18,248 bases of DNA from a virus (IMGVR_UViG_3300045988_132161:1-18248); one strand, 5' to 3'. Counted from the first letter of the stretch, positions 1 through 18,248 are shown. The notes: a model not told the origin generated them from the sequence alone. Made by a program: numbers and translations.

Positions 1-154
1 TGAGTGGTGGGATCTGTGGGAAATTTTTCCCATAGTATTTTTTTTTATGGTATGTTTTCTTTTTTTTGTTTTTTTGTGTGTGTGGTTGTTGGTGGTTCTG
101 TTGTAGTTTGCTGCTGGTTTTTTTATTTTTTCTGTCTTTTTTTGCGTTTTCCGG

Positions 155-183
155 TTGTGTTGTTTTTTTGTGTGTGGTATAGT
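155..183 (+). promoter_or_regulatory. ITR promoter a: TTGTGT, 17-nt spacer, TGgTATAGT (extended -10), firing inward
   Basis: TTGTGT at 155..160, a 17-nt spacer, TATAGT at 178..183 and TG at 175..176. This is sigma-70/sigma-A-like geometry. Confidence 0.5.
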
Positions 184-275
184 GTAGTTATCAACTTCAA
201 AGAAAGGTTGTGAAATGATTACTGTTTTTTATTTCGTTGTTGGCCATGGGGTTCCTGTGGGGCTTGTCGTTCCGG

Positions 276-304
276 TTGTGTGGTGAGGTTGGTGTGTTGA
301 TAAT
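276..304 (+). promoter_or_regulatory. ITR promoter b (weaker): TTGTGT, 17-nt spacer, GATAAT
   Basis: A second copy of the TTCCGGTTGTGT core (270..281) supplies TTGTGT at 276..281. A 17-nt spacer is followed by GATAAT at 299..304. Confidence 0.3.
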
Positions 305-465
305 GGTTTTCATTGTTGGTGTTCTTGCCGTCTTGCTTGGCTGCGAGCTGTTTTTGATGTGCAGTGATGTTTCGCGGGATGTTGGGGACGTGTTGTTGCT
401 TTGTACTGGTCTTGTTGTGGGTTTGGTTGTTGTTGTTGTGTTCAGTCATTGATGGGAGTGTTGTT

Positions 466-714
466 ATGGCTGGTGTTGATGTGAGGGTTGCCGTGTTTCC
501 GTCCCGGTTTGTGGATGGTGATGTGGAGTTGTGGTATGTGCCTCGGGATCATTGTTATGATTTGAGGTATGTGGTGCGGTTTCGCCCGTTTGGGTGTGGT
601 TCGCGTAGTGAGGTGGCGTCTTGTTTGTATGATGCCGGCGATTATAAGGAGGTTGCGGGTATGATCGTGGATGCTGTGACTATTGCCGTTACGCCTTTGT
701 TGCATAGGAGTTGA
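466..714 (+). CDS. Hypothetical early protein (82 aa); the first 16 codons lie inside the ITR
   Basis: ATG at 466 sits 7 nt after GGGAG (454..458). This is the internal Met of ORF 364..714. The product MAGVDVRVAVFPSRFVDGDVELWYVPRDH... looks like a soluble protein, and its stop abuts the next start (TGAATG). Confidence 0.6.
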   Translation: MAGVDVRVAVFPSRFVDGDVELWYVPRDHCYDLRYVVRFRPFGCGSRSEVASCLYDAGDYKEVAGMIVDAVTIAVTPLLHRS

Positions 715-891
715 ATGATGGTTGAGACGTTTGTCGTGTTGGCGTATGTGCGTCATGAGGACAGGCCTGTTGAGGTTGGTTGTGCGTCGTCGTATGATGG
801 GGCTTCTCGTCTGGTGCGTGAGTGGGCTGTGAGGCCGGCTTGTGTGAAGGATGTGGCTTATTTTAGGATTGAGGGTAGGTTTTATGTCTGA
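715..891 (+). CDS. Hypothetical early protein (58 aa)
   Basis: Hand-translated ORF below the track cutoff: MMVETFVVLAYVRHEDRPVEVGCASSYDGASRLVREWAVRPACVKDVAYFRIEGRFYV. It starts directly after the stop at 712..714, and its stop overlaps the next start (ATGTCTGA). Confidence 0.5.
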   Translation: MMVETFVVLAYVRHEDRPVEVGCASSYDGASRLVREWAVRPACVKDVAYFRIEGRFYV

Positions 892-1408
892 GGGTTTTGT
901 TCGTGGGGATGTGTCTGTCCCTGTGTTTAGGCTTCGTAGTTTTGATGATGCGATCATGGAGTCTCCTCGCGTGGTGAAGGCGGTGAGGGGTCATGTTCGT
1001 GAGTTGAATTTGAAGCGTTTTGATGCTGGTTTTGGTGATTTTGAATCGTGTTGTCGTGCGGTGAATATGCTGTGCGAATTGTGGTCTGGGGCTCGTTCTG
1101 AATGGTTTGGTAGGGCTGTGATCGCCGTTTCGAACATTTGTGCTTCCTTGTCTCCTCATGATGGTTTGCAGGCTGCTTTGTCGCGTACGTATGATGTGGA
1201 GTATTTGGATGGTTCCATTAATGGTCCGAATCTTATTGCGTGGACTGCTGTCTGTCGTGTCAAGGGTGGTTCTGGTTTCGACTGTTGCACGGTTTTCGAC
1301 CATTATGGGGCGAAGTGTTTGATTCTTGCGGTGTCCAAGAGTTTTTGCAGGTTGGATACCATGTGTTATACTGATAGTCAGCTGCAGGCTATTCTTTTAG
1401 GGAGGTAA
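884..1408 (+). CDS. Hypothetical early protein (174 aa, Cys-rich)
   Basis: Internal ATG at 884 of ORF 851..1408, preceded by GAGGGTAGG (871..879). It is coupled to the upstream and downstream genes. I recognise no family. Confidence 0.6.
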   Translation: MSEGFVRGDVSVPVFRLRSFDDAIMESPRVVKAVRGHVRELNLKRFDAGFGDFESCCRAVNMLCELWSGARSEWFGRAVIAVSNICASLSPHDGLQAALSRTYDVEYLDGSINGPNLIAWTAVCRVKGGSGFDCCTVFDHYGAKCLILAVSKSFCRLDTMCYTDSQLQAILLGR

Positions 1409-1728
1409 TGATGGCTAAGGTTAAGTCTGGTATTTTCCGTACTCGCGTGTTTGCCGTGCTTAAGGGTATGGAATTGGTGGATGGCGACTTTACGCAGTCC
1501 GAGCATGTTATTGACGGGCGTCTTAAGGATGCTCGTGCGTACTCGGTTCGTGCGAAGAAGCTGTTTCCGAATTTCATTCCGCGTTCCATCGAGATTTACT
1601 CTCAGAGGGTTACGATGGATGATGAGACGTTTTACAGGCATGCGACTTTCGAGGAACCGCAGAAGTGGAATCCCGAAGAACATACAAAAAAGCAACACGC
1701 CGAAGTTGAAAACAACGACGGCATGTGA
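1408..1728 (+). CDS. Putative histone-like dsDNA-binding protein (phi29 p6-like)
   Basis: 106 aa. GGAGG lies at 1401..1405, so the real start may be the second ATG at 1411. By-eye alignment with phi29 p6 as I recall it shares MAK..I.(K/R)T.V....VDG(E/D)...G.L...A...(R/K)K...V.(V/I)E...V....E.F...AT and an acidic tail. Its position upstream of SSB-TP-DNAP matches phi29 genes 6-5-3-2. Confidence 0.45.
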   Translation: MMAKVKSGIFRTRVFAVLKGMELVDGDFTQSEHVIDGRLKDARAYSVRAKKLFPNFIPRSIEIYSQRVTMDDETFYRHATFEEPQKWNPEEHTKKQHAEVENNDGM

Positions 1729-1734
1729 TATAAA
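1706..1734 (+). promoter_or_regulatory. Promoter P2: TTGAAA, 17-nt spacer, TGaTATAAA (extended -10)
   Basis: TTGAAA at 1706..1711, a 17-nt spacer, TG at 1726..1727 and TATAAA at 1729..1734. It overlaps the stop of the p6-like gene and lies upstream of the SSB gene. Confidence 0.55.
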
Positions 1735-1791: not shown

Positions 1792-2235
1792 ATGATCCTC
1801 ATGGAAAACAACAACACCGCACTCGTCGCATTCAACACCGAGAACACCGAGCTCGGCACCGTCCAGCACTTCATCGACACTTCGACCCGCGAAGGCAAGA
1901 TCAAGCTCTACTCCGCCCTCCAGAATGCCGAAAAGCTGGACGAACACCTCAACGAGCCGCTGGCCATGGTGAACGCCGTCGCACAGGCCGTACAGGTGAC
2001 CGACGATCAGACGGGCGAGGTTTCCAACACCGTGCGCGTCATCATCGTGACCGCCGACAACAAGGCGTACGCCGCCACCTCACCCACTCTGGCAGCCGGA
2101 CTGAACACCATGTTCGGCATCTTCGGAACGCCGAACACGTGGACCGAACCGCTCACCATCAAGGTGATCGAACGTCGCTCCCGCCGCGGTTTCAAGTTCT
2201 TCAGCATCGAACCGGTGGTTGAAGAAGCCAAGTGA
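1792..2235 (+). CDS. Putative single-stranded DNA-binding protein (phage-type SSB)
   Basis: 147 aa, with SD GGGAAGGA upstream. The pattern ...LYSALQNAEKLDEHLNEPL...V.VTDDQTGEV...VRVIIVTADNKAYAATSPTLAAGLNTMFGIFGTPNTW.EPL.IKV.E.RSRRGFKFFSIE resembles lactococcal-phage-type SSBs from memory. Its position corresponds to phi29 gene 5. Confidence 0.45.
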   Translation: MILMENNNTALVAFNTENTELGTVQHFIDTSTREGKIKLYSALQNAEKLDEHLNEPLAMVNAVAQAVQVTDDQTGEVSNTVRVIIVTADNKAYAATSPTLAAGLNTMFGIFGTPNTWTEPLTIKVIERRSRRGFKFFSIEPVVEEAK

Positions 2236-2315: not shown

Positions 2316-3278
2316 ATGTCCCGCAAACAGAAGCACGTCAAGGCACGTCAAGCCGCACAAGCCCGTGCCGCACGCAACATCAAACAGCTCGGCGCCTATT
2401 CGCATGCGAATCTCGCCAAAACCGCCGACAGGCAGCTCGTCAACATCGCCAAAACGCTCGGACAGGAGTGGGATAGGCAGAAGAGGCAGGCCATCGTGGA
2501 AGCGAAAGCCACCCCCTACCATGCCACCGTCGTGCCGAAACCCACGAAACAGGATTACCTGTTCGCCGCGCGTGCCGACATCACGGACGCACGGATCGCA
2601 GCGGAACCGGTGGCGAAGCGGCGCAAACTCCTACGCCAACAACGGCGGAAGATCAATGCGGCACGGCAGCGGATCAACGATTGGAACAAGGCGCAAGCCA
2701 TGCCACCTAAAAGCGTGTACGACCAGCGTATGGACGAACTTTCCGACACTACCGATGAGGGTTTCGGCCGCAATCAGATCATCCCCTCCAAGCTTACCGA
2801 TTTTCTCCAAATGAAGAACGTGCTTGGCGACGAAGCCTTTGTCAGGAGCCAGTTGGAAGGCGGTCATCGTAAGGAACTGTTGAACCAGATGCATGACGCC
2901 GCCGAGATTCTGGGCTTGCGTACCGAACGGGAAGCCGGGACGGGCGGAAAGCCTAAGGCGAAGGCGAAGAAGAGGCAGGACTTGTATGATGAAGGCCGAT
3001 GGCCGTCGTACATGCGTAAGTCGCGTTACGAAATGTTCGAAAAGATTCTGGGCTCGTCGCTCGGATCGAAGCGTCTGAAACGGTTCCGCAAGCTGACGGC
3101 CGCGCAGAAGCGTGCTTTCATCGAATTGACGGATGCGCCTCGCATCGTGTTCGACTGGTCCACGTATGATCCGGTCCGGCACGGTTTCGTTTCGGCTTTG
3201 CGTGAGGATAGCGAAGGCTACTCTCGCTCCCGCAGGAATTTCGACCGTTGGATGGCGGAGGTTGAGGCACTGGCGTAA
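2316..3278 (+). CDS. Putative terminal protein (positional call)
   Basis: 320 aa, SD AAGGGGAG upstream. It ends 28 nt before the DNAP start, matching the phi29 gene 3-2 order. The N-terminus is very basic (MSRKQKHVKARQAAQARAARNIK) and there is an internal KPKAKAKKR. I see no sequence-level match. Confidence 0.5.
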   Translation: MSRKQKHVKARQAAQARAARNIKQLGAYSHANLAKTADRQLVNIAKTLGQEWDRQKRQAIVEAKATPYHATVVPKPTKQDYLFAARADITDARIAAEPVAKRRKLLRQQRRKINAARQRINDWNKAQAMPPKSVYDQRMDELSDTTDEGFGRNQIIPSKLTDFLQMKNVLGDEAFVRSQLEGGHRKELLNQMHDAAEILGLRTEREAGTGGKPKAKAKKRQDLYDEGRWPSYMRKSRYEMFEKILGSSLGSKRLKRFRKLTAAQKRAFIELTDAPRIVFDWSTYDPVRHGFVSALREDSEGYSRSRRNFDRWMAEVEALA

Positions 3279-3305: not shown

Positions 3306-4757
3306 ATGACGATGATCAAAAGTAGGGTCGGATTATGGTGTGCCGACGGTGTGATACGGTTTACGGACGGCACGGGATTGCATGATGTCGGCTCCCCCGC
3401 CGCCATGATGGCGGCTGTCATGACCGGAGGCAGGCTTACCGTCTACGTGACCGACCCTGATGTGCTCGATCCTTTCATTGCGCATGTCGTGCATGCGCTC
3501 CCCCATAATGAGCATCGCGCGAACCTGAGCTGGGATGGCATCGTTTCCAAGAAGGGCAGGTTTTTCAGCTTCTGTGTGACCGTCGACCGGGATGATTCGA
3601 TCCGCTTCTTCGACGTTTCGAACCTGCTGCGGGAAAACTGCCGTATCACCATGACGGACAGGCAGTTGTTGGCTGTTCTTGCCGAATATGAGAAGCGTGG
3701 CCTGTGCAGGATCACCGCGGGCGCGGCCAGCATGGAAGCGTTCGTCAGGGGGGATTGGGAATGGTATGATGGCAAATTCCCCCAGCTCGGTTCGGAGGAT
3801 AAAATGTCGTTGCATGGGGCTTATATCGGAGGATTCATGCTGGCCAAGGAAGGACGGTATGGCAAGGCCATTGACGTTGACTGCAATTCCATGTACCCGT
3901 CCATTTTGAAGGATGAATGGCTTCCGTGGGGGCTTCCGGAACCGTATGACGGCGAATATGAGCGGGATGACGACATGCCGTTGCATTGCGACGAAATGAC
4001 GTTCCGTGCGGAATTGAAACCGGACGGGTGTCCTTTCCTGTTGGACAACCGTAGCATGTACGGTTTGAATCGTCTCACTTCGACACGAGGCTATGTCACG
4101 CGTGTCCTGACCGACATCGACCAGAAGCTGCTCGAAGAGAATTATGACGTGACCGTGTACGAACGTGTGCGTGGGTGGAAGTTCCGTAGGAACAAAGGGT
4201 TTTTCCGCTCTTTCGTCGAAGAATGGGGCGCGTTGAAGCAGCGTGGGACGGGGGAGGGAAGGCAGATGGCCAAGCTCATCATGAACGCTCTCGTGGGCAA
4301 GATGGCAAGCCTGCCGAAAGGCGCCGTCATGCTCCCCTCTTCGAAGGATGGCGTCACCGTCGAATGGGATGTCGCCCATCGTGACGGGTCGAATCTGAAG
4401 ACCGATTATCTGCCGGTCCCCATATGGGTGAACGCTTATGCGCGTAGGAAGCTTATGACGGTCTGCCGTGCGAATGCGGATCGGCTCCTGTATGCCAATA
4501 CGGACGGCTGCATACTGTCCGGCTGGGATCCGGTGGCATCATGCGAGATTCATCCGACCGAATTGGGCAAATGGAAGATCGCCGCCAAGTATGATAGGCT
4601 CACCATTCTGGGAGTGAATCGATATCAGGGGTGGCGTTGCGATGGTGGAGTGGATGTCTGCATGGCGGGAAGCGTGTTCGACGAGCCCATCCCCTATGAG
4701 CGGTTCCGGCATGGCGTACAGGTGCGCGACGCCTGCGGTACGATGGTCATGCTATGA
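3306..4757 (+). CDS. Protein-primed family-B DNA polymerase (phi29 gp2-like, short and divergent)
   Basis: 483 aa. Motif A is IDVDCNSMYPS (phi29 FDVNSLYP), motif B is KLIMNALVGKMAS (phi29 KLMLNSLYGKFAS) and motif C is LLYANTDGCIL (phi29 IYCDTDSIHL). RITAGAASMEAF matches phi29 RMTAGSDSLKGF. A TPR2-like insertion, SLPKGAVMLPSSKDGV...PIWVNAYAR, lies between motifs B and C. Confidence 0.9.
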   Translation: MTMIKSRVGLWCADGVIRFTDGTGLHDVGSPAAMMAAVMTGGRLTVYVTDPDVLDPFIAHVVHALPHNEHRANLSWDGIVSKKGRFFSFCVTVDRDDSIRFFDVSNLLRENCRITMTDRQLLAVLAEYEKRGLCRITAGAASMEAFVRGDWEWYDGKFPQLGSEDKMSLHGAYIGGFMLAKEGRYGKAIDVDCNSMYPSILKDEWLPWGLPEPYDGEYERDDDMPLHCDEMTFRAELKPDGCPFLLDNRSMYGLNRLTSTRGYVTRVLTDIDQKLLEENYDVTVYERVRGWKFRRNKGFFRSFVEEWGALKQRGTGEGRQMAKLIMNALVGKMASLPKGAVMLPSSKDGVTVEWDVAHRDGSNLKTDYLPVPIWVNAYARRKLMTVCRANADRLLYANTDGCILSGWDPVASCEIHPTELGKWKIAAKYDRLTILGVNRYQGWRCDGGVDVCMAGSVFDEPIPYERFRHGVQVRDACGTMVML

Positions 4758-4900
4758 TGGGAATCGTTCTTCGAGCATTGATTTTCGGCTGGGAGAGACA
4801 TGGTTCGGACTGCCACGGCTGAGAATGCCGCCGATCATGGTTTGCCGTCGTGGTGACGGCGCCCTACGATTTTCGCCTCATGCTCTTATAGGACGTTTCG

Positions 4901-4930
4901 GGCCCTCCGTGATTGGAGGGCCTTTTGCTT
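4901..4930 (+). terminator. Rho-independent terminator closing the replication operon
   Basis: GGCCCTCC, loop gtgatt, GGAGGGCC: an 8-bp GC-rich stem at 4901..4922, followed by TTTTGCTT. Confidence 0.75.
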
Positions 4931-4939: not shown

Positions 4940-4948
4940 TGATATGAT
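4940..4948 (+). promoter_or_regulatory. Promoter P3 (late): extended -10 TGaTATGAT
   Basis: TG at 4940..4941 and TATGAT at 4943..4948, just downstream of the terminator and 36 nt upstream of the scaffold ATG. There is no convincing -35. Confidence 0.4.
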
Positions 4949-4983: not shown

Positions 4984-5268
4984 ATGGCAGAACCGACCAC
5001 TGGCGACGAGGATGCTCCCGTCCAGCCGCCGACCGTGGAGGAGAGGGAGACCGAAACCGTCGACGATGAGGTCAAGCCGAACGGGGATTCGGGGCCGGAG
5101 TCGAAGGACGGCGGGCCGGACGTGTCCGCACGACTCGATGCCATCGAGAAGGAGTTGGCCGCATTGAAGGCCATGATGGACACGCTCGGATACACGGACC
5201 CCACTCCGGCCGATGACGGCGATGATGGCGTCGAAGCGCAGCATTCCATCGAAGACCTGTTCGATTAA
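4984..5268 (+). CDS. Scaffolding protein (phi29 gp7-like by size, charge and position)
   Basis: 94 aa and very acidic (D/E-rich), with a helical segment ARLDAIEKELAALKAMMDTL. SD AAGGAG lies upstream and the gene sits immediately before the major capsid gene. Confidence 0.6.
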   Translation: MAEPTTGDEDAPVQPPTVEERETETVDDEVKPNGDSGPESKDGGPDVSARLDAIEKELAALKAMMDTLGYTDPTPADDGDDGVEAQHSIEDLFD

Positions 5269-11860: not shown

Positions 11861-13662
11861 GCACCATATACGACAAGACCGACAATTACGGGTTGAACCT
11901 GTACGGTGACAAGGATCCCGCCGACCTGAGGGACGGCTATAACGATTCCATGCATACCATTGACGAGACGCTCAAAAACCATCTCGACAAGATCGACGGC
12001 GTGTCCCACACCGTTACGGACGCCGTCCAGAAGCAGGATGCGAAGATCGCGCTGAAGGCCGACAGGACCTACGTCGACGAACAGGACCGGACTCTTCAAG
12101 CAGCCATCGACGAACAGGATCGGAACCTTCAGACGGCCATCGACGGGAAGGCCGACAGGACCTACGTGGATGGCATGCTGGAAGGCAAGGCGGACTCCGC
12201 TCTCGTATATTCGAAGCATGATGTGGATTCGACTTTCGCGCTTAAGGCCGACACGTACACGAAGGAGGAAGTCGACAGGATGCAGGCCGGGCAGGATGAG
12301 GCCATCAACGCATTGAACCGGGGCGTCGACCAGGATCATAGCGTTCTCGTATCATACTTCCTGAGCCAATCCGAACGGTTGCATTACGCCGTATCCTCGG
12401 ATGGCGTCAACTTCGGACACCCGTACATCCGGGATAACGATGAGGGGGAGACGGTCCGCGACCCGTCATGCGTGTACGTGGACGGGCAAGTGTATTTCTG
12501 TTGGACACGTCCCACCGAAGCCGGCGGCGGCGCGTTCGGCAAGACGGACACGATAGGCATAGCCCAATTGAATCCTACGACCGGGGACATCGTACGCCGG
12601 ATCATCACGCCGGGCGTGCCTGGAACCTCGAACCTGTGGGCGCCCGACTTCTATCTGGAAGATTCGACGCTTCATATCATCTTCTCCGTCAAGACCGCCA
12701 CGCAGGACTTCCAGCCGTATGAGATTCATTCGACCGGCAACTATGCCGATCCATCATCATGGTCGACTCCGGTCGCCTTGGGCATCGCACCGTACGGCGG
12801 CATCGACCACCATATCATCAAGGATGACGCCGGAACGTATCATGACCTTTCGGCGGATGGGTCCGTCATTTCCGAACGGCACAGCAGGACCCTTATCGGA
12901 GGATGGAGCGGCAGGACGACCGTCGACAAGAACTGGCGTTATCTCGAAGCGCCCGCCTCCTATCGTCTCGCGAACGGCCGGTGGAGGGTGTTCTTCGACG
13001 GGGGCGGACTTCAGGGAGACTATAATCCCGGTTCGAACCTTCGGGAGAACGATGGCCTCATGTTCTACTGCGACTTCAGCAACGACCTTTCCACGCACGG
13101 GCCTCTCCACCCGGTCCCCACGGCCATGAGGCACTGCGGGCTCACGCTCATCCCCAACGATTACCTGGCCACGCAGGCACGTCTCGAAGTGGGGTCCGGG
13201 ATCGGCGGAGCCTACCTGTATAATTCCGTCGACATTCCGGTGGGGCTTGATTCCGCCGGGAAGAACGTTCGTGCGCTGTTCAACAGGTTCGAAGGGTTCG
13301 GAGGACTCCAGAACACCGGATTCGGAGGAAGCCATAACACCACCGAAGGGTTCATCGTAGGAAACTCGGGACTGTATGTGCTTGCCGCTTCCGTCTCATA
13401 CAAGTGCACGGCGCCTAAGACGTGGATCAACGCGCAGATCACCTGCTATCCGCAACGTGACTTCAAGAACGCGAGGAATCTGGGCATTGGCGCACAAGGA
13501 TTCTCGGCTCCCGACGACGACACGATCACTACCGTGGTATTGCCGGCGACGCTGGTGTACCTCCATGCCAACGATCAGATTCAGATCAAGATGTTCGGCA
13601 GGGACGGCGCTGTGACGCAGAGGGCCAACAACTCCTATTTCACCGCGTTCAAGGTGGCTTGA
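11857..13662 (+). CDS. Tail fibre / appendage (receptor-binding protein) with a GH43-like beta-propeller and a C1q/TNF-like C-terminal domain
   Basis: 601 aa, SD GAAGGAG upstream. N-terminal anchor motif YGLNLYGDKDPADLRDGYN. Shaft repeats KADRTYVDEQDRTLQAAIDEQDRNLQTAIDGKADRTYVD. Propeller-type motifs are VRDPSCVYVDGQVYF, LWAPDFYLEDSTLHIIFS, GIDHHIIKDDAGTYH and YLEAPASYRLANGRWRVFF. The C-terminal ~155 aa (GFIVGNSGLYVLAASVSY...LVYLHANDQIQIKMF...SYFTAFKV) has a jelly-roll, C1q-like pattern. Confidence 0.7.
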   Translation: MSTIYDKTDNYGLNLYGDKDPADLRDGYNDSMHTIDETLKNHLDKIDGVSHTVTDAVQKQDAKIALKADRTYVDEQDRTLQAAIDEQDRNLQTAIDGKADRTYVDGMLEGKADSALVYSKHDVDSTFALKADTYTKEEVDRMQAGQDEAINALNRGVDQDHSVLVSYFLSQSERLHYAVSSDGVNFGHPYIRDNDEGETVRDPSCVYVDGQVYFCWTRPTEAGGGAFGKTDTIGIAQLNPTTGDIVRRIITPGVPGTSNLWAPDFYLEDSTLHIIFSVKTATQDFQPYEIHSTGNYADPSSWSTPVALGIAPYGGIDHHIIKDDAGTYHDLSADGSVISERHSRTLIGGWSGRTTVDKNWRYLEAPASYRLANGRWRVFFDGGGLQGDYNPGSNLRENDGLMFYCDFSNDLSTHGPLHPVPTAMRHCGLTLIPNDYLATQARLEVGSGIGGAYLYNSVDIPVGLDSAGKNVRALFNRFEGFGGLQNTGFGGSHNTTEGFIVGNSGLYVLAASVSYKCTAPKTWINAQITCYPQRDFKNARNLGIGAQGFSAPDDDTITTVVLPATLVYLHANDQIQIKMFGRDGAVTQRANNSYFTAFKVA

Positions 13663-13772: not shown

Positions 13773-15029
13773 TTGAGCAATCAAAGCATGTTTGCGATGT
13801 ATGCGATCGGCAAGGTCGAATCAGGCAATTCGTGGACTTCGGTGAACTACAATGATCCGATCACCTTGGGGATGATGCAATGGTATGGGACCCGCGCCTA
13901 CGGCCTGCTCGACAAGGGCCGTAGGGAGGATCCTGTCGGATGGACGGGATTCGAACGGGATGCGCCCACCTTGGCCGGACAGGTCGAAGCCAATGCCATC
14001 GACTGGACCGGCCGATACCTGACCCGTGCGGAAGGCAACGCGTTCATCACATGGGCCAGCCGCAGCGAATTCCACAAGGTCGAACAGGACCTGTGGGAAT
14101 CCGACTATGCGGCGTACTCCGCCACGTGCGACGATTATGGCTTCCCGGCGGGCAATGTCAGGGAGCGTATCTTCTTCATGAGCATGTACCATCAGTCGCC
14201 GCAGCGTGCGCTGGTGGTATTGGGCAATGTCAGCGCCACCGGATCGCTTGAACTGTTCCACACCACCGCGCTCAACGATGCCATCCTCGGCCGCTATCCA
14301 AGCCGATACGATACCGTCTACCGGCTGTTGCGCGATTGGGATGGGACGGGCGCCCCGCCTGACTTCGGACAGTCCGGCAGCATCGACGTCACGCCGGGCG
14401 GCAATGGTCCCGCCATCGAATCCAAGCCGAAGAACACGCGTTGGATTCACGTGCAGGGGGATGGCATGTATTTGCATGACGGCGGCAAGGTGAGCATATT
14501 CCATCACACCACCGCCCAGAATTGGGTCGAAAGCGTGCAACAAGGCAACGAAATTTCAGGCGGGCAGACCGGGGGAGGCAGCAGTAGCGGCAGCGCCACG
14601 TCGGACCAGAGGAAAGTGTACGACCTGTACCTGTCATGGCAGGGACGGTTCGCCTACTCTCAGGCCGGGGGACGGTTGGATCCGCTCCATACCGGCTATG
14701 GTGACTGTTCGAGTACGATCTGGCGGGCGTATCAGGATGCGCTCGGCATCGACGTGGGCACGTGGACCGGAGCGATGAAAGGCAAAGGCAGACGCGTCTG
14801 TTCCAGTGATGGTACGGGCGTGGAGGAAGCGTTGAAGAACGCGCAGACCGGCGACCTGCTATTGCTGTGTTGGGGGTATGATTACGTCAACTATGATCAT
14901 GTCGAAATGGCCGCCGGAGACGGGTCTCATTGTCTTGGCCATGGCGGGCCGGGCAACGGGCCGACGTTGAAGGATATGGGGGCTACCATGCGGGCCGCCG
15001 CGACATGGGAGATTCGACGGTATGTCTGA
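13773..15029 (+). CDS. Tail-associated peptidoglycan hydrolase (gp13 analogue): N-terminal lytic transglycosylase-like domain plus C-terminal NlpC/P60 endopeptidase
   Basis: TTG at 13773 lies 8 nt after GGAGAG; ATG at 13788 is an alternative start. The N-terminus has GKVESGNSW...ITLGMMQW (SLT-type ES and GLMQ motifs). A Gly/Ser linker follows. The C-terminus has GYGDCSSTIWRAY (catalytic Cys), GDLLLL and YDHVEM (His), typical of NlpC/P60. Confidence 0.75.
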   Translation: MSNQSMFAMYAIGKVESGNSWTSVNYNDPITLGMMQWYGTRAYGLLDKGRREDPVGWTGFERDAPTLAGQVEANAIDWTGRYLTRAEGNAFITWASRSEFHKVEQDLWESDYAAYSATCDDYGFPAGNVRERIFFMSMYHQSPQRALVVLGNVSATGSLELFHTTALNDAILGRYPSRYDTVYRLLRDWDGTGAPPDFGQSGSIDVTPGGNGPAIESKPKNTRWIHVQGDGMYLHDGGKVSIFHHTTAQNWVESVQQGNEISGGQTGGGSSSGSATSDQRKVYDLYLSWQGRFAYSQAGGRLDPLHTGYGDCSSTIWRAYQDALGIDVGTWTGAMKGKGRRVCSSDGTGVEEALKNAQTGDLLLLCWGYDYVNYDHVEMAAGDGSHCLGHGGPGNGPTLKDMGATMRAAATWEIRRYV

Positions 15030-15157: not shown

Positions 15158-16225
15158 ATGGCATTGCGGACATTGGCTGAAAACGACTATTACGACCTCC
15201 ACAACCTCCTCACCCGTAACGCGCCATGGAACTTCATCATCGGAGCGCGAGGCCTCGGCAAAACCTTCGCCGCGAAACGATACGGCATCAAGGAGTACCT
15301 CAAACACGGGCACGAATTCATCTACCTGCGCCGCACCGACGTGGAACAGAAACGCAAGGAAACCTTCTTCAAAGACATTCAAAGCTTCTTCCCCGACTAC
15401 ACGTTCCGCATCAACGGCGACAAAGGCCAATTGCACAACGACTCGTGGGAAGACAAGGACTGGCGCACATGCTGCCATTTCATCGCCCTCTCCCAAGCCG
15501 GCGGCCTCAAATCAGTCGCCTACCCCAAAGTCCATCTCATCATCTTCGACGAAATATTCCCCGACAACCTACGATTCCTCAGCAATGAAGTCAACTCGTT
15601 CTCCGAATTCTTCAACACCGTGGACAGGTGGCAGGATAGGACGAAAGTATTGTTCCTATCCAACGCCGTACAGCAAGCCAACCCCTACTTCGCGAAATAC
15701 CATCTGGACATCGGCACGCAGCAAGCCAACCATCAGCAATACAGGCTCTACTGCAGCGGCTTCATCTGCCTCGAACTGGCGGATTACGGCGGATTCTCAG
15801 CCAAAGTAGCCAAATCCAGATTCGGCAGGTTCCTGGAACGATACGATGGCGACTATGCGGATTACGCCATTCGAAACAAGTTCCGGGACGAATCCGACAA
15901 GCTCATAGCGGCAATCCCCCCGGACGGTGAACTGTCATACGTTCTGGACACCGCCGACTACGGTCGCTTCGGCATTTGGATGACGATATCCGAAAAGGAC
16001 GGGCACGTGTCACGATACGTGTCACGACGGATACCCAAAGACAACACCCGCCCCACCTACACGCTCAACCCCAACCACGTCGACGAAAAAACATGGTACG
16101 TCAAAAAATCCGACGACGTGGTACGACGACTCACCACCGGATACCGGCTCGGCAAAATCAGATTCGAAAACACCCAAGTCAAAGCGGACTTCGCCCTCAT
16201 CATCGGCAACCTGCTAGGAGCATAG
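15158..16225 (+). CDS. DNA packaging (encapsidation) ATPase, phi29 gp16-like
   Basis: 355 aa. ATG at 15158 lies 10 nt after GGAGG (15143..15147). WNFIIGARGLGKTFAAKRYGIKEYLKHGHEFIYLRR matches phi29 LNFVIGARGIGKSYAMKVYPINRFIKYGEQFIYVRR (Walker A). HLIIFDEIF matches STIVFDEFI (Walker B). FLSNAVQQANPYF matches CLSNAVSVVNPYF. RFGRFL and GKIRFEN match RFGRLI and GYLRFDN. Confidence 0.95.
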   Translation: MALRTLAENDYYDLHNLLTRNAPWNFIIGARGLGKTFAAKRYGIKEYLKHGHEFIYLRRTDVEQKRKETFFKDIQSFFPDYTFRINGDKGQLHNDSWEDKDWRTCCHFIALSQAGGLKSVAYPKVHLIIFDEIFPDNLRFLSNEVNSFSEFFNTVDRWQDRTKVLFLSNAVQQANPYFAKYHLDIGTQQANHQQYRLYCSGFICLELADYGGFSAKVAKSRFGRFLERYDGDYADYAIRNKFRDESDKLIAAIPPDGELSYVLDTADYGRFGIWMTISEKDGHVSRYVSRRIPKDNTRPTYTLNPNHVDEKTWYVKKSDDVVRRLTTGYRLGKIRFENTQVKADFALIIGNLLGA

Positions 16226-16240
16226 AAAGGAAACCCGACA

Positions 16241-16606
16241 ATGACGCAAACGGACATATGGAGCGCCATCGCAATACTGTTCTTCATCACCACGGACTAC
16301 ATCACCGGAGTGATCAAAGCCAGCATGCAAGGCAACCTCAGCTCCAAAAAAATGCGGGAAGGCTTAGGCCACAAGCTCGCCTACCTCGCACTATCAGTCA
16401 CCGCATGGTTCATAGACATGCTGAACACGCACCTCCCCCTCGGCTTCCCCCTCGACATATCCACCTGCGTCATCAGCGGCATCTGCCTCATCGAACTCAC
16501 CTCCATCCTCGAAAACCTCACAGCCATCAACCCGGAACTCAACGACGCCCCATTCATGAACATCTTCGCACAACACGACACCCAGCCAAAACACAAGGAA
16601 AGCTGA
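16241..16606 (+). CDS. Holin (Phage_holin_4_1 / LL-H, TcdE-type)
   Basis: 121 aa. It has the pattern DYITGVIKA...LSSKKMREGLGHKLAYLALSV.....ID...LIELTSILENL and predicted transmembrane segments. It lies immediately upstream of the endolysin. Confidence 0.85.
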   Translation: MTQTDIWSAIAILFFITTDYITGVIKASMQGNLSSKKMREGLGHKLAYLALSVTAWFIDMLNTHLPLGFPLDISTCVISGICLIELTSILENLTAINPELNDAPFMNIFAQHDTQPKHKES

Positions 16607-16609
16607 CCA

Positions 16610-17479
16610 ATGGACGACATCACATGGATAGGCTCACCAAACCACTACAACGGGCGAAACGGCTACACCATCACCCACATCACACTCCACATCATGGTAG
16701 GCCACCTCACCGGAACCGACAACGTCTTCAACCAGCCCACGACACAGGCAAGCGCACACTACGGCATCGGAGCGGACGGCACCATACACCAATACGTCAA
16801 CGAAACGGACGGCAGCTACAGCGACGCCAACTACGCATCCAACAATTCAACCATCAGCATCGAACACGAAGGAGGAAAAGCCGGCATACCATGCACCCAA
16901 GCATGCATGGACGCCAGCGCCCGACTCTGCGCCGACATAGCACGACGACACGGTTGGACACACCTATGGCATGACGGGCTCAACGGCAACATATGGCTCC
17001 ATCGAGAAATACCCGGAACAGACCACTACGGATGCCCCGACAACACCATCAACAGCCTCAACGTACCCTACATCATCAACAAAGCAAACCAACTACTGGC
17101 AACAGGAGACACTATGACAGCAGAAGACGTATGGAACTTCAACCAAAACGGCGTGAAAATGCGCGACCGCATACAAGGCACCGACACGGCCGCAAACAGC
17201 GCCAAAACCGAACTCTTCCGACTATCCACATGGGACAACGACACCCACGCATCCCCACTAGGAAACCTCGTCATCGAACAGCCAATCCAACAAGGAGCCA
17301 AACTCGGCGACCGAATAGCCGGCATCGACGACAAAACCAGCCAACTCATCACCCAAATAGCCGCACTCACCACAGCAGTCAAAACACTCGCCGAACGCAT
17401 AGGAGCCAACCCCGACACCACCACACCAACCACACACAACCAGACCAAGCCAAACCCGACAACCACCACAACACAGTGA
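16610..17479 (+). CDS. Endolysin: N-acetylmuramoyl-L-alanine amidase (Amidase_2 / PGRP fold) with an uncharacterised C-terminal region
   Basis: 289 aa, SD AAGGAAAG upstream. It carries ITLHIMVGH, SAHYGIGADGTIHQYVNE, NNSTISIEHEG and LHREIPGTDHYGCPDN (T7-lysozyme-type Zn ligands His, His, Cys). The C-terminal ~130 aa is coiled-coil-like and ends in a Thr/Pro-rich tail. Confidence 0.85.
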   Translation: MDDITWIGSPNHYNGRNGYTITHITLHIMVGHLTGTDNVFNQPTTQASAHYGIGADGTIHQYVNETDGSYSDANYASNNSTISIEHEGGKAGIPCTQACMDASARLCADIARRHGWTHLWHDGLNGNIWLHREIPGTDHYGCPDNTINSLNVPYIINKANQLLATGDTMTAEDVWNFNQNGVKMRDRIQGTDTAANSAKTELFRLSTWDNDTHASPLGNLVIEQPIQQGAKLGDRIAGIDDKTSQLITQIAALTTAVKTLAERIGANPDTTTPTTHNQTKPNPTTTTTQ

Positions 17480-17504
17480 CAATCCACCGGCAGCAAGCCA
17501 CAAC

Positions 17505-17536
17505 AAAGCCCCTAGGCCAACAAACCTAGGGGCTTT
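17505..17536. terminator. Bidirectional terminator hairpin at the inner edge of the right end
   Basis: AAAGCCCCTAGG, loop ccaacaaa, CCTAGGGGCTTT: a 12-bp stem. On the - strand it is followed by GTTGTGGCTTGC (with the stem's own TTT reading TTTGTTGTGG). On the + strand only the stem-terminal TTT is available. Confidence 0.6.
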
Positions 17537-17543
17537 CCCATAC

Positions 17544-17569
17544 CAACACCAACCACCAACACCAACCAC
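17544..17569. repeat. Tandem 13-bp direct repeat, two copies of CAACACCAACCAC
   Basis: The copies occupy 17544..17556 and 17557..17569 and are identical. Confidence 0.9.
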
Positions 17570-17591
17570 CACACAGCCTCACCAGCAAGCC

Positions 17592-17783
17592 TCACAAGCC
17601 ACACAAACCGCCTCTCCTAGCCCCAACACAACAGCCAAGCCTACCAACCAGCCAAGCCACAAAACACGTCCCACACGCCACCACACAGCCCCACACAGCA
17701 AGCCACACCACACAACCGGAACGACAGGCCGCCGCCACAAACCGGGACGGAAACACGGCAACCCTCACATCAACACCAGCCAT
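17592..17783 (-). CDS. Possible right-end leftward ORF (63 aa, hydrophobic) using the ITR-borne SD and ATG
   Basis: The mirror of the 466 ATG is at 17783..17781. The first 16 aa are identical to the left-end protein, followed by the unique AAACRSGCVVWLAVWGCVVACGTCFVAWLVGRLGCCVGARRGGLCGL. The ORF is bracketed by the ITR promoter and the 17505..17536 terminator. However, G+T-rich DNA yields such V/G/C/W-rich ORFs by chance. Confidence 0.25.
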   Translation of the reverse strand: MAGVDVRVAVFPSRFVAAACRSGCVVWLAVWGCVVACGTCFVAWLVGRLGCCVGARRGGLCGL

Positions 17784-18248
17784 AACAACACTCCCATCAA
17801 TGACTGAACACAACAACAACAACCAAACCCACAACAAGACCAGTACAAAGCAACAACACGTCCCCAACATCCCGCGAAACATCACTGCACATCAAAAACA
17901 GCTCGCAGCCAAGCAAGACGGCAAGAACACCAACAATGAAAACCATTATCAACACACCAACCTCACCACACAACCGGAACGACAAGCCCCACAGGAACCC
18001 CATGGCCAACAACGAAATAAAAAACAGTAATCATTTCACAACCTTTCTTTGAAGTTGATAACTACACTATACCACACACAAAAAAACAACACAACCGGAA
18101 AACGCAAAAAAAGACAGAAAAAATAAAAAAACCAGCAGCAAACTACAACAGAACCACCAACAACCACACACACAAAAAAACAAAAAAAAGAAAACATACC
18201 ATAAAAAAAAATACTATGGGAAAAATTTCCCACAGATCCCACCACTCA
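17735..18248. repeat. Right inverted terminal repeat (514 bp)
   Basis: Mirror copy of 1..514; see the left ITR entry. Confidence 0.95.
18066..18094 (-). promoter_or_regulatory. Mirror copy of ITR promoter a, firing leftward into the right end
   Basis: Reverse complement of 155..183. ACTATA at 18066..18071 is TATAGT on the - strand. Confidence 0.45.

What the first reader, a model, noticed from the sequence alone, without database searches (positions are those of the whole stretch)
1..18248. Complete phi29-type protein-primed phage genome with unusual architecture: 514-bp ITRs, a single coding strand, and ATPase placed before the lysis genes
Recognisable homologues or analogues are present for phi29 gp6, gp5, gp3, gp2, gp7, gp8, gp9, gp10, gp11, gp13, gp16, gp14 and gp15, and the window ends exactly at inverted repeats. 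It is therefore most likely a whole linear genome. Three differences from the phi29 paradigm are visible. The ITRs are 514 bp, whereas phi29 has 6 bp. All confident genes run left to right, whereas the phi29 early operons are leftward at both ends. The packaging ATPase precedes holin-endolysin instead of following them. There is also no p4-like regulator slot between the SSB and TP genes. The sequence is far more GC-rich than the Bacillus phages, and the amidase, holin and NlpC/P60 lysis set suggests a Gram-positive, possibly actinobacterial, host. That host assignment is inference.
Basis: partly seen in the sequence, partly recalled or inferred. Interest (0 to 1): 0.65.

Follow-up and report, generated by a model that had tools for sequence, protein, structure and literature searches.

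The report
New Bifidobacterium phi29-like phage genome
The window is an essentially complete genome of a new species of an already isolated group of small Bifidobacterium phages, so its layout is ordinary for that group, but it also carries an unannotated small RNA that looks like the phi29 packaging RNA and a DNA polymerase that has lost its proofreading motifs.

Summary
Bases 1-514 and 17735-18248 are a perfect inverted repeat, and HMMs confirm the phi29-type SSB, DNA polymerase, capsid, tail knob, portal, lower collar, gp16 ATPase, holin and amidase. The ATPase precedes the lysis genes.

The "unusual architecture" is not new. The window is about 82% identical over about 96% of its length to Bifidobacterium dentium phages BD811P1-3, which puts it in the same genus as a new species. 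ENA contigs are 99.7% identical to it. Cp-1, Av-1, BadAztec1 and BD811P share the rightward early operon, the ATPase-holin-lysin order and small leftward ORFs at the right end. Cp-1, BadAztec1 and metagenomic relatives also have long ITRs of 236-401 bp.

The genome is not strictly single-stranded in coding. Each ITR carries an inward promoter. The 514-bp length comes from a duplicated left-end segment and rests on this one assembly.

Two features were not in the finding:
- A promoter-to-terminator small RNA gene (4750-4930) has strong covariation and the topology of phi29 prohead RNA, including complementary bulge and loop tetrads. Rfam does not detect it.
- The 483-aa polymerase keeps the phi29 fold but lacks ExoI, ExoII and ExoIII.

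Both features are shared by the whole lineage.

The parts
1..514 (.). Left inverted terminal repeat. It holds the presumed replication origin, the early promoter, ORF-a, ORF-b and the first 16 codons of ORF-c.
   Evidence: It is 100% complementary to 17735-18248. The terminal ~50 nt are conserved with independent relatives.
17735..18248 (.). Right inverted terminal repeat.
   Evidence: The inner junction was not found in other collections.
175..183 (+). Left early promoter, extended -10 TGGTATAGT, pointing inward.
   Evidence: The motif TGNTATRRT occurs 7 times against 0.99 expected, and 0 of 200 shuffles reach 7. The box lies at the homologous place inside the relatives' ITRs.
18066..18074 (-). 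Right early promoter, the ITR copy, pointing leftward.
303..452 (+). ORF-b, a 49-aa hydrophobic protein with two hydrophobic stretches. An identical copy lies at 17797-17946 (-).
   Evidence: tblastn gives full-length hits at 72-73% identity in BD811P relatives. Similar small hydrophobic ORFs (with a shared E-L-x-R-D-x-x-D-V stretch, by eye) appear among the left-end ORFs of L009, L033, L060 and BD811P2.
466..1728 (+). Left early ORFs of unknown function: c (466-714), d (715-891), e (884-1408) and f (1411-1728). ORF f sits in the gp6 slot.
   Evidence: The + frames are conserved at 48-78% aa identity in 64-71 loci. The antisense frames reach only 32-56%. There are no family hits.
1792..2235 (+). 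phi29-type single-stranded DNA-binding protein.
   Evidence: PF17427 at 4e-17 and phrog_6243.
2316..3278 (+). Candidate terminal protein, 320 aa, lysine- and arginine-rich, predicted all-helical.
   Evidence: It sits between the SSB and DNAP genes, as the annotated terminal-protein gene does in Av-1; in Cp-1 the TP gene likewise lies just upstream of the DNAP gene. It is homologous to BadAztec1 gp16 (hhalign 98.5%). A 322-aa ORF occupies the same slot in L097. It has no match to known TPs, and the AF2 model is poor (pLDDT 56).
3306..4757 (+). [quoted passage not shown]
   Evidence: PF03175. phmmer against 1XHX gives 1.5e-39 over residues 117-435 only. The AF2 model has pLDDT 88.6, and Foldseek gives TM 0.82-0.85 to the phi29 polymerase.
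4750..4930 (+). Unannotated small RNA gene, the candidate prohead RNA. It consists of an extended -10 box TGCTATGAT (4750-4758) over the DNAP stop codon, an RNA core at 4764-4896, and a terminator hairpin at 4900-4923 followed by a T run.
   Evidence: Promoter conservation in 60 relatives is shown. The consensus structure has 94.2% of cells paired against 35-49% in slid controls, and 20 compensatory pairs. The MFE fold agrees with it. A covariance model finds the RNA once in each of 84 loci. The topology equals that of phi29 pRNA. Rfam gives no hit.
4940..4948 (+). Late promoter, extended -10 TGATATGAT.
   Evidence: It is GCATGATATAAT in nearly all relatives.
4984..5268 (+). Acidic 94-aa protein in the scaffold (gp7) slot.
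   Evidence: Position only. There are no family hits.
5291..7033 (+). Major capsid protein with a C-terminal Ig-like domain.
   Evidence: PF25622 at 1.3e-53 and Big_2.
7050..7084 (+). Strong terminator-like hairpin after the capsid gene.
   Evidence: 16-bp stem.
7103..9334 (+). Tail knob protein (gp9-like).
   Evidence: phrog_2248 at 8.5e-77 and PF20934.
9390..10331 (+). Portal / upper collar. The N-terminus is basic (MSRRNNARK).
   Evidence: PF05352 at 2.8e-39. The start is taken from ENA gene calls.
10328..11140 (+). Lower collar (gp11 / Ad4).
   Evidence: phrog_3225 at 4.5e-28 and phrog_5472.
11175..11860 (+). Two small ORFs of unknown function (11175-11696 and 11693-11860).
   Evidence: They are conserved in relatives and have no family hits.
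11857..13662 (+). Tail / receptor-binding protein.
   Evidence: phrog_18920 at 1.2e-23. It is 82-84% identical to the BD811P proteins and unrelated to BP1 beyond the N-terminus.
13773..15029 (+). Protein in the gp13 slot, a presumed tail-associated lysin.
   Evidence: Position. It is 48% identical to the BadAztec1 counterpart and 29% to the Av-1 counterpart. It has no family or PDB-sequence hit.
15158..16225 (+). gp16-type packaging ATPase.
   Evidence: PF05894 at 2.5e-43 and phrog_2150 at 2e-58.
16241..16606 (+). Holin.
   Evidence: PF05105 at 6.7e-17.
16610..17479 (+). Amidase_2 endolysin.
   Evidence: PF01510 at 8.9e-19.
17506..17535 (.). GC-rich hairpin (GCCCCTAGG...CCTAGGGGC) between the convergent late and right-early units. 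It is probably a bidirectional terminator.
   Evidence: Read directly from the sequence. BP1 carries a near-identical hairpin at each end of its genome (pair I2).
17592..17783 (-). Chimeric leftward ORF. Its first 16 codons are identical to ORF-c and the rest is unrelated low-complexity sequence. It is probably not functional.
   Evidence: no hit in any relative.
17703..17730 (.). A 28-nt, 93% copy of the reverse complement of 261-288, lying 4 nt inside the ITR boundary. It is a footprint of an older ITR boundary at about 288 bp.
   Evidence: I4, D20.

Best explanation
The window is the complete, or complete to within a few terminal bases, linear genome of a lytic podophage of Bifidobacterium. 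It is a new species in the same genus-level group as the isolates BD811P1-3.

How it most likely works (inferred, except where a call number is given):
- A terminal protein (candidate gene 2316-3278) primes replication at both ends. The phi29-fold family-B polymerase elongates by strand displacement. This polymerase has lost its exonuclease motifs.
- Each ITR carries an inward extended -10 early promoter.
- The left promoter drives small ORFs, then SSB, the TP candidate and the polymerase.
- A separate promoter overlapping the polymerase stop codon drives a ~165-nt structured RNA that ends at its own terminator. This RNA is most likely the prohead (packaging) RNA.
- A late promoter at 4940 drives the scaffold-slot gene, capsid, tail knob, portal, collar, receptor-binding protein, tail lysin, gp16 ATPase, holin and amidase.
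- The right ITR promoter drives a short leftward unit that ends at the hairpin at 17506-17535.
- The 514-bp ITR is longer than in relatives, where ITRs stop at the first start codon. In the window, 226 bp of left-end sequence (ORF-b and the start of ORF-c) were copied to the right end, replacing the usual right-end gene.
For: - Identity to isolates: megablast and blastn give 82-83% identity over 92-96% of the window to BD811P1-3, with intergenomic similarity of 0.78-0.79. The genomes are syntenic gene by gene.
- The same species was assembled elsewhere. ENA contigs are 99.7% identical.
- At least 119 relatives are in IMG/VR.
- phi29-type module HMM hits are. The polymerase fold matches phi29 with TM 0.82-0.85.
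- ITRs: the window has 514 bp. Complete relatives have 292-401 bp. Many contigs end in inverted repeats of exactly 99, 119 or 141 nt, which I take (own knowledge of common assemblers' k-mer sizes) to mean the assembler broke at a real repeat. Terminal sequences are conserved. In relatives the ITR ends at the first ATG, with different genes on the two sides.
- The footprint of the older boundary is at 17703-17730.
- Promoters: TGNTATRRT occurs 7 times against 1 expected.
- Coding strand of the left region.
- RNA gene.
Against: - No terminal protein could be identified by sequence or fold.
- The outermost bases differ between assemblies (the window against L086). No terminal base reiteration suited to sliding-back is visible, so the true termini are not known.
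- The 514-bp junction is unsupported outside this assembly.
- There is no experimental data for this phage. The host is inferred from relatives.
Confidence: 0.9

Rival explanations
1. The 514-bp ITR is an assembly product. The real ITR is about 220-290 bp, as in relatives, and the right end carries its own gene.
For: - Relatives' ITRs stop at the first start codon and measure 259-401 bp.
- A 28-nt repeat (17703-17730 against 17961-17988) flanks the extra segment.
- Both 99.7%-identical ENA contigs break before this region.
- The junction is absent from IMG/VR and JGI contigs.
Against: - The junction sequence 17731-17750 has no counterpart at the left end (515-545 is unrelated). A de Bruijn graph could not create it without reads that contain it.
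- The repeat copies differ at 2 of 28 positions.
- Both arms end at the same conserved terminal sequence.
Confidence: 0.2
2. The structured RNA at 4764-4930 is not a packaging RNA. It is instead a regulatory RNA at the early/late boundary, for example an antitermination or timing element, or a stabilising 3' structure of the early transcript.
For: - It lies exactly between the early operon and the late promoter and is followed by a terminator.
- Rfam's pRNA model does not match it.
- The model R1 finds nothing in phi29, Av-1 or Cp-1.
- The bulge/loop complementarity could be an intramolecular pseudoknot.
Against: - It has its own promoter, which constrains synonymous sites of the polymerase gene in every relative and in three other lineages.
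- Its helix and loop dimensions match phi29 pRNA domain I almost one to one.
- The complementary tetrads change sequence but stay complementary, at the same register, in four lineages.
- The phage uses a gp16-type ATPase and a phi29-type connector. In phi29 these need a pRNA (PMC5066667).
Confidence: 0.25
3. The polymerase still proofreads, using non-canonical residues in its N-terminal domain or a separate exonuclease.
For: - The N-terminal domain is retained, is modelled with fair confidence, and the whole protein superposes on phi29 polymerase.
- One aspartate aligns with phi29 D169.
Against: - The ExoI DxE strand is absent.
- The ExoII region is unconserved across 17 clade members.
- The ~33-residue segment carrying ExoIII Y-x3-D is deleted.
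- No other nuclease gene is recognisable in the 18 kb.
Confidence: 0.12
4. The sequence is not a virion genome. It is a linear plasmid, a defective element, or a chimeric contig.
For: None beyond the lack of experimental data for this exact sequence.
Against: - It carries a full structural, packaging and lysis gene set.
- It is collinear with three plaque-forming isolates.
- It is the same length class as more than 60 relatives.
Confidence: 0.02

Closest known systems
Bifidobacterium phages BD811P1, BD811P2 and BD811P3 (OP172658-60, NC_073478; host B. dentium DA811)
   Same: - The gene order is identical from the early ORFs to the endolysin.
- Nucleotide identity is 82-83% over ~96% of the window.
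- Protein identities are 72-95% for most genes, including the receptor-binding protein (82-84%) and the endolysin (79-80%).
- They carry the same RNA gene and the same 483-aa polymerase.
   Different: - Identity is below the 95% species line.
- The deposited records carry 0-55 bp ITRs, which are probably truncated, and a genuine leftward gene at the right end. The window has a duplicated left-end segment there instead.
- The outer ~300 bp are not alignable by megablast.
Bifidobacterium phage BP1 (PQ571273; host B. pseudocatenulatum)
   Same: Same backbone, the same RNA gene, and the same terminal hairpin motif.
   Different: Intergenomic similarity is 0.49. The receptor-binding protein and endolysin are different, and there are more early ORFs.
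Badaztecvirus (honeybee Bifidobacterium asteroides phages BadAztec1 and BadAargau2)
   Same: - Same gene order.
- 259-bp ITR ending at the first start codon.
- Short 469-aa polymerase.
- Homologous TP-slot protein.
- A -10 box over the polymerase stop codon, followed by a GUGAGCG...CGCUCAC-closed RNA and a terminator.
   Different: - Protein identity is 27-49%.
- The RNA is not detected by model R1.
- A pRNA-like fold is 6 kcal/mol above its MFE.
Actinomyces phage Av-1 (Dybvigvirus) and Streptococcus phage Cp-1 (Cepunavirus)
   Same: - Rightward early operon, with SSB-TP-DNAP in Av-1 and TP-DNAP in Cp-1 (no SSB is annotated in the Cp-1 record).
- Terminase, then holin, then endolysin.
- A few small leftward ORFs driven from the right end.
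- Cp-1 has a 236-bp ITR.
   Different: - Their polymerases are full length (566-568 aa by the annotated coordinates).
- Av-1's annotated packaging RNA lies near the right end.
- There is no nucleotide similarity, and protein identity to Av-1 is 26-37%.
Bacillus phage phi29 (Salasvirus)
   Same: Homologous SSB, polymerase palm/TPR core, capsid, tail knob, connector, lower collar and gp16 ATPase. Its pRNA has the same topology.
   Different: - 6-bp ITR.
- A leftward left-hand early operon, and a p4 regulator gene between the SSB and TP genes.
- ATPase after the lysis genes.
- Proofreading polymerase of 572-575 aa.
- The pRNA lies at the extreme left end.
Prohead RNA, Rfam RF00044 (Phage_pRNA)
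   Same: Comparing the window RNA with phi29 pRNA:
- Both have an A helix formed by the 5' and 3' ends and a three-way junction.
- The C helix is 9 bp in both.
- The bulge is on the 5' side only: 7 nt in the window, 9 nt in phi29.
- The E helix is 4 bp in both, with a 7-nt loop in the window and 6 nt in phi29.
- The linker is 3 nt in both.
- The D hairpin is 7 bp in the window and 6 bp in phi29, with a 5-nt loop in both.
- The last 4 nt of the bulge are complementary to the last 4 nt of the D loop: GCCA/UGGU in the window, AACC/GGUU in phi29.
   Different: - There is no sequence or covariance-model similarity. RF00044 scores 145 bits on phi29 and nothing on the window or BD811P2.
- The genomic position differs.
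- No domain II is evident.
- The function is untested.

Membership tests
phi29-like protein-primed podophages (sensu PMC11476376) | Family-B DNA polymerase of the protein-primed type, with a phi29 fold that includes the TPR insertions | tested here: met
   PF03175 at 7.7e-24. phmmer against 1XHX gives 1.5e-39. Foldseek gives TM 0.82-0.85 to phi29 polymerase chains.
phi29-like protein-primed podophages (sensu PMC11476376) | Terminal protein gene next to the polymerase gene | tested here: inconclusive
   A 320-aa basic helical ORF is in the right slot and is conserved in BadAztec1 and L097. It has no similarity to the phi29 or Av-1 TP, and its model is poor.
phi29-like protein-primed podophages (sensu PMC11476376) | Linear genome with inverted terminal repeats | tested here: met
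   A 514-bp perfect ITR. The termini are conserved with relatives.
phi29-like protein-primed podophages (sensu PMC11476376) | phi29-type capsid, connector, lower collar and tail knob | tested here: met
   PF25622, PF05352, phrog_3225/5472 and PF20934/phrog_2248.
phi29-like protein-primed podophages (sensu PMC11476376) | gp16-type packaging ATPase without a small terminase | tested here: met
   PF05894 at 2.5e-43. No small-terminase family was hit by any ORF.
phi29-like protein-primed podophages (sensu PMC11476376) | [quoted passage not shown] | not testable with these tools
   This needs a protease-sensitivity or mass-spectrometry test on virion DNA.
BD811P-like Bifidobacterium phage genus (not yet named by ICTV in the records seen) | Nucleotide intergenomic similarity above about 70% to members. 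The 70% genus and 95% species thresholds are ICTV convention, from my own knowledge. | tested here: met
   0.78-0.79 to BD811P1-3 as identity times aligned fraction, a VIRIDIC-like estimate.
BD811P-like Bifidobacterium phage genus (not yet named by ICTV in the records seen) | Same species as a described isolate (95% or more) | tested here: not met
   The best isolate reaches 0.79. Only unnamed ENA contigs reach 99.7%.
Salasmaviridae / Picovirinae in the strict phi29 sense | 6-8 bp ITR, leftward early operon containing genes 6 to 1, a p4 regulator, and a pRNA detectable by RF00044 | tested here: not met
Prohead RNA (pRNA) | Discrete ~120-175 nt transcript encoded by a phage that has a phi29-type connector and gp16 ATPase | tested here: met
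   Conserved promoter, terminator, connector and ATPase. Transcription itself is inferred.
Prohead RNA (pRNA) | Secondary structure of an A helix, a three-way junction, C helix - CE bulge - E hairpin, and a D hairpin | tested here: met
   RNAalifold and pair counts: 94.2% of cells paired, 20 compensatory pairs, 0 of 500 shuffles reach the observed value.
Prohead RNA (pRNA) | Watson-Crick complementarity between the CE bulge and the D loop | tested here: met
   In 75 distinct sequences the four pairs are GC63/GU8/AU4, CG75, CG72/UG3 and AU68/UU6/AC1. Other lineages keep complementarity with different bases: L097 GUCG/UGAC, L098 GAC/GUC and L148 CAU/AUG. Whether the pairing is intermolecular cannot be told.
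Prohead RNA (pRNA) | Match to the curated model RF00044 | tested here: not met
   No hit at E<=1 in the window or BD811P2. The positive control on phi29 scores 145 bits.
Prohead RNA (pRNA) | Binds proheads and is required for DNA packaging | not testable with these tools
   This needs an experiment on BD811P or BP1 proheads.
Proofreading family-B DNA polymerases | ExoI (DxE), ExoII (Nx2-3F/YD) and ExoIII (Yx3D) motifs | tested here: not met
   All three motifs are present in 8 long relatives and in phi29, and absent from all 17 short-clade members.

The most novel reading that the evidence does not exclude
A clade of high-GC phi29-like phages with a short polymerase has two shared traits that have not been annotated. 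The clade includes the human-gut Bifidobacterium lineage that contains this window, and at least three further metagenomic lineages. Badaztecvirus shares the short polymerase and an RNA gene in the same place, but its fold is ambiguous.

(1) A prohead-RNA gene sits immediately downstream of the polymerase gene, driven by a promoter that overlaps the polymerase stop codon. This would make pRNA ancestral to, or at least widespread in, phi29-type packaging motors well beyond Bacillus phages.

(2) The protein-primed polymerase has kept the exonuclease-domain fold but lost all three catalytic motifs, so it is a naturally proofreading-deficient phi29-type replicase.
Probability: 0.6. Interest if true: 0.75.

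Novelty: new member of a known kind. Interest (0 to 1): 0.5.

Why it matters
As a genome it adds one species to a group of gut Bifidobacterium phages that is abundant in metagenomes (at least 119 IMG/VR relatives) but has only four isolates in the phage collection searched.

The two lineage-wide features matter more.

The RNA:
- The pRNA review read here (PMC5066667) treats pRNA only in phi29 and its Bacillus-phage relatives, and states that phi29 and related phages are the only phages known to need an RNA for packaging.
- Whether other gp16-type motors need a pRNA is, to my knowledge, untested.
- A structurally matching RNA in isolates that can be grown (BD811P1-3, BP1) makes that question directly testable.
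- It also offers new three-way-junction scaffolds for RNA nanotechnology.

The polymerase:
- A natural exonuclease-less phi29-type polymerase bears on how small phages balance fidelity and genome size.
- It is also of practical interest for strand-displacement enzymes.

A practical point for databases: many deposited relatives end in inverted repeats exactly as long as common assembler k-mer sizes, so their ends are probably truncated.

Tried and rejected
- Rfam at E<=1 on the window gave nothing. tRNA search gave none.
- Terminal protein:
  - PDB sequence search found nothing.
  - hhalign to the Av-1 TP gave probability 0.5%.
  - The AF2 model was too poor (pLDDT 56) to justify a fold search.
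- The gp13-slot and receptor-binding proteins have no PDB-sequence, Pfam or NCBIfam hits. "NlpC/P60" is therefore not confirmed here.
- Minus-strand genes in the GT-rich left 1.7 kb were considered because of the strong skew. I rejected this because the plus frames are clearly better conserved.
- Covariance model R1 against phi29, Av-1, Cp-1, BadAztec, L097 and L098 gave no significant hits. The RNA is lineage-specific in sequence.
- A pRNA-like fold forced on the BadAztec1 RNA is 6 kcal/mol worse than its MFE. I left this as ambiguous.
- The motif scan CGTATTNNGTTACGCC in IMG/VR returned 120 mostly chance hits. Only BadAztec1 and one new lineage (L148) were next to a polymerase gene.
- A search with the BadAztec polymerase in IMG/VR found only itself.
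- An exact search for the ITR junction in IMG/VR and JGI metagenomes gave 0 hits.
- An exact look-up of the endolysin found no record.
- The hairpin at 14-35 looks like a terminator but is not conserved in relatives and points inward, upstream of the promoter. I did not interpret it.
- Literature searches found no report of a pRNA in Bifidobacterium phages or of a natural exonuclease-less phage pPolB. The library is incomplete, and the paper describing BD811P is not in it.

Full report
**Observation.**
- The window ends in a perfect inverted repeat, 1-514 against 17735-18248. GC is 56.2%.
- Profile searches confirm nine phi29-type genes:
  - SSB (1792-2235, PF17427)
  - protein-primed family-B polymerase (3306-4757, PF03175)
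  - capsid (5291-7033, PF25622 plus Big_2)
  - tail knob (7103-9334)
  - connector (9390-10331, PF05352)
  - lower collar (10328-11140)
  - gp16 ATPase (15158-16225, PF05894)
  - holin (16241-16606)
  - Amidase_2 endolysin (16610-17479)
- The claimed gp6, gp3, gp7 and gp13 counterparts have no family, PDB-sequence or profile match. They rest on position only.
- The ATPase does precede the holin and lysin, and nothing lies between the SSB and the TP-slot gene.

**What it is.**
- Megablast against deposited phages finds Bifidobacterium dentium phages BD811P1-3 at 82-83% identity over 92-96% of the window. B. pseudocatenulatum phage BP1 matches at 75-77% over 55-65%.
- Identity times aligned fraction is 0.78-0.79 to BD811P1-3. 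That places the window in the same genus as a new species.
- Gene order is identical, and most proteins are 72-95% identical, including the receptor-binding protein and the endolysin. A Bifidobacterium host, probably B. dentium or a close relative, is therefore a sound inference.
- Two ENA metagenome contigs are 99.7-99.8% identical. IMG/VR holds at least 119 relatives of 17-19 kb.
- A 2024 review already lists BD811P1 as the representative of one capsid cluster of phi29-related viruses (PMC11476376).

**Architecture compared with known phages.**
- The three "departures" hold only against phi29 itself.
- Cp-1, Av-1, BadAztec1 and the BD811P phages all have these features:
  - a rightward early operon with TP-DNAP (preceded by an annotated SSB gene in Av-1, BadAztec1 and the BD811P phages)
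  - the terminase ahead of the holin and endolysin
  - one or a few small leftward ORFs at the right end
- ITR lengths in the records are 236 bp (Cp-1), 259 bp (BadAztec1), 52 bp (Av-1) and 6 bp (phi29).

**The ends.**
- Among relatives whose whole contig was retrieved, ITRs are 292, 310, 354, 357 and 401 bp. Many others end in inverted repeats of exactly 99, 119 or 141 nt. These are typical assembler k-mer sizes (own knowledge), so a real longer repeat probably broke the assembly there.
- The outer ~50 nt of the window align with the ends of independent relatives to within a few bases. The ends are therefore physical ends. The outermost bases are ragged between assemblies, so the exact termini are unknown.
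- In relatives and in BadAztec1 the ITR stops at the start codon of the first gene. The promoter, ribosome-binding site and ATG lie inside the repeat, and different genes follow on the two sides.
- In the window the first ATG is at 215, yet the repeat runs to 514. The right end thus carries copies of ORF-a (23 aa), ORF-b (49 aa, hydrophobic, conserved in BD811P relatives) and 16 codons of ORF-c. These are fused to unrelated low-complexity sequence.
- Four bases inside the boundary lies a 93% copy of 261-288 (I4/D20). I read this as the remnant of an older boundary at about 288 bp, before 226 bp of left-end sequence were copied across.
- The junction cannot be produced by collapsing that repeat, because the bases across it have no counterpart at the left end. 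But it is seen in no other collection.

**Transcription map (inferred).**
- The extended -10 motif TGNTATRRT occurs 7 times against 0.99 expected.
- The interpretable sites are 175-183 (+) and its ITR copy 18066-18074 (-), 4750-4758 (+) and 4940-4948 (+).
- The genome is therefore not transcribed in one direction only. A short leftward unit runs from the right ITR to a GC-rich hairpin at 17506-17535. BP1 carries a near-identical hairpin at each end of its genome.
- The strongly GT-rich left 1.7 kb made minus-strand genes worth testing.

**A small RNA gene, not in the finding.**
- The 226-nt gap between the polymerase and the scaffold-slot gene is highly conserved across about 80 relatives, with visibly compensating changes.
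- In all 60 relatives examined the polymerase ends with ...(C/T)TA TAA T or ...CTA TGA T. This reads TG(C/T)TATAAT or TGCTATGAT, the same extended -10 form as the late promoter, and the leucine codon is always CTA or TTA.
- About 7 nt downstream begins a ~133-nt core (4764-4896). A terminator hairpin (4900-4923) and a T run follow it.
- RNAalifold predicts 38 pairs, 17 of them with compensatory changes.
- For a 51-pair structure that adds a basal helix, the terminator and a bulge-loop pairing, the pair counts are:
  - 94.2% of cells pair, against 35-49% when partners are slid
  - 20 pairs show double changes, against 4-7 when slid and 11.9 +/- 1.7 in shuffles, with 0 of 500 shuffles reaching 20
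- The single-sequence MFE fold reproduces the structure (z = -2.67).
- A covariance model finds the RNA exactly once in each of 84 loci.

**Comparison with phi29 pRNA.** The fold of the 120-nt phi29 pRNA and that of the window RNA have the same order of elements and nearly the same sizes.

| Element | Window RNA | phi29 pRNA |
|---|---|---|
| A helix from the 5' and 3' ends | yes | yes |
| C helix | 9 bp | 9 bp |
| Bulge on the 5' side only | 7 nt | 9 nt |
| E helix | 4 bp | 4 bp |
| E loop | 7 nt | 6 nt |
| Linker | 3 nt | 3 nt |
| D hairpin | 7 bp | 6 bp |
| D loop | 5 nt | 5 nt |
| Last four bulge bases / last four D-loop bases | GCCA / UGGU | AACC / GGUU |

- In phi29 pRNA the last four bulge bases pair with the last four D-loop bases, and this contact links the pRNAs into a ring (PMC5066667).
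- In 75 distinct sequences of the window's lineage the four pairs are GC63/GU8/AU4, CG75, CG72/UG3 and AU68/UU6/AC1.

**Other lineages with the short polymerase.**
- L097, L098 and L148 have about 35-40% polymerase identity to the window or to other members of the short clade. All have the -10 box over the stop codon, an RNA of ~125-130 nt and a terminator.
- Their MFE or near-MFE folds (within 0.6 kcal/mol) have the same topology.
- Bulge/loop complementarity sits at the same register but uses different bases: GUCG/UGAC, GAC/GUC and CAU/AUG.
- Badaztecvirus has the same promoter arrangement and closing helix, but its fold is ambiguous.
- Rfam's pRNA model finds phi29's RNA at 145 bits and nothing in the window, BD811P2 or BadAztec1.
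- I conclude that this is most likely the pRNA of the lineage, with probability about 0.7. It is a new sequence family of a known kind of RNA. A regulatory role at the early/late boundary is not excluded.

**The polymerase.**
- All relatives are 483 aa.
- A whole-library search finds a clade of 464-496-aa enzymes. Typical relatives are 540-620 aa.
- In alignments and in a profile-profile comparison the long enzymes and phi29 keep DFET, HNLKFDG and Y..ND..I. All 17 short enzymes differ in three ways:
  - they start after ExoI
  - they have no conserved ExoII
  - they lack the ~33 residues that carry ExoIII
- The AF2 model is confident (pLDDT 88.6). It superposes on phi29 polymerase with TM 0.82-0.85 over the whole chain. 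The domain fold is therefore kept while the catalytic residues are gone.
- Loss of proofreading is inferred and has not been shown.

**Terminal protein.**
- ORF 2316-3278 is in the canonical slot. It is conserved in the lineage and homologous to BadAztec1 gp16.
- It has no detectable similarity to known terminal proteins, and its model is poor.
- Protein priming is therefore inferred from the polymerase type, the ITRs and the family context.

**Verdict.**
- The finding is real and its main interpretation is right.
- Its novelty claim is not. This is a new member of a described phage group whose layout is typical of non-Bacillus phi29-like phages.
- The interest lies in the unannotated pRNA-like gene and the exonuclease-less polymerase. 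Both are shared by cultivable isolates and can be tested directly.

Noticed in passing
window 4750-4930 (+): An unannotated small RNA gene with its own promoter over the polymerase stop codon, strong covariation, phi29-pRNA topology and its own terminator. It is present once in each of the 84 related loci that the covariance model hit, and is unannotated in the BD811P and BP1 records.
   Followed up: yes
window 3306-4757 (+): The 483-aa protein-primed polymerase lacks the ExoI, ExoII and ExoIII motifs but keeps the phi29 fold. The same is true of a whole clade of 464-496-aa enzymes.
   Followed up: yes
window 1-2000 and 16000-18248: - There is a very strong, mirror-symmetric strand bias. The strand whose 5' end lies at each terminus is G+T-rich, with GC skew +0.50/-0.51 and TA skew +0.57/-0.68 in the outer 1 kb.
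- The bias extends beyond the ITR and holds regardless of coding strand.
- It is present but weaker in relatives, and absent in Cp-1 and phi29.
- One possible cause is single-strand deamination of the displaced strand during end-initiated replication. This was not tested.
   Followed up: partly
window 6976-7029 (+): A perfect 27-nt tandem duplication sits at the 3' end of the capsid gene. It gives ...GEKTVKVSAGEKTVKVSA* and makes the protein 9 aa longer than in BD811P2 (580 against 571 aa by the annotated coordinates).
   Followed up: no
window 17703-17730 versus 261-288 / 17961-17988: A 28-nt, 93% repeat lies just inside the right ITR boundary. I read it as a footprint of an older, shorter ITR.
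   Followed up: partly
IMG/VR loci L019, L020, L040, L042, L047-L049, L051, L054, L058, L069, L075, L076: The terminal inverted repeats of these contigs are exactly 99, 119 or 141 nt, which are typical assembler k-mer sizes (own knowledge). These database genomes are probably cut at the inner edge of a longer ITR.
   Followed up: partly
L001 (BD811P2) 246-422 and 267-425: The record annotates a minus-strand CDS (gp02) where the plus strand encodes the conserved small hydrophobic protein (the ORF-b homologue). This is probably a strand misannotation.
   Followed up: partly
L002 (BP1) 380-527 versus 19316-19463: BP1's left ITR arm is internal, with 379 nt outside it. The deposited left end may carry extra or misjoined sequence.
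   Followed up: no
window 14-35 and 18214-18235: A 9-bp palindrome (CTGTGGGAAATTTTTCCCATAG) followed by a T run lies right at each terminus. It is not conserved as a hairpin in relatives, although TTTTCCC and the T run are conserved.
   Followed up: no
window 12074-12139 (+): Two 33-nt tandem units, 82% alike, lie in the N-terminal part of the receptor-binding protein (DEQDR.LQ.AI repeats).
   Followed up: no
window 553-561, 3762-3770 (+) and 12809-12817 (-): Three further matches to the extended -10 motif lie inside genes. Whether they are internal promoters is unknown.
   Followed up: no
L097 2974-3159, L098 1932-2115, L148 (minus strand, downstream of the DNAP gene), L091 12680-12857 (-), L093 1883-2061: Other short-polymerase lineages also place a TATAAT box on the polymerase stop codon, followed by a ~125-nt structured RNA and a terminator. 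L097, L148 and Badaztecvirus share an E hairpin CGUA-UUnnGU-UACG.
   Followed up: partly
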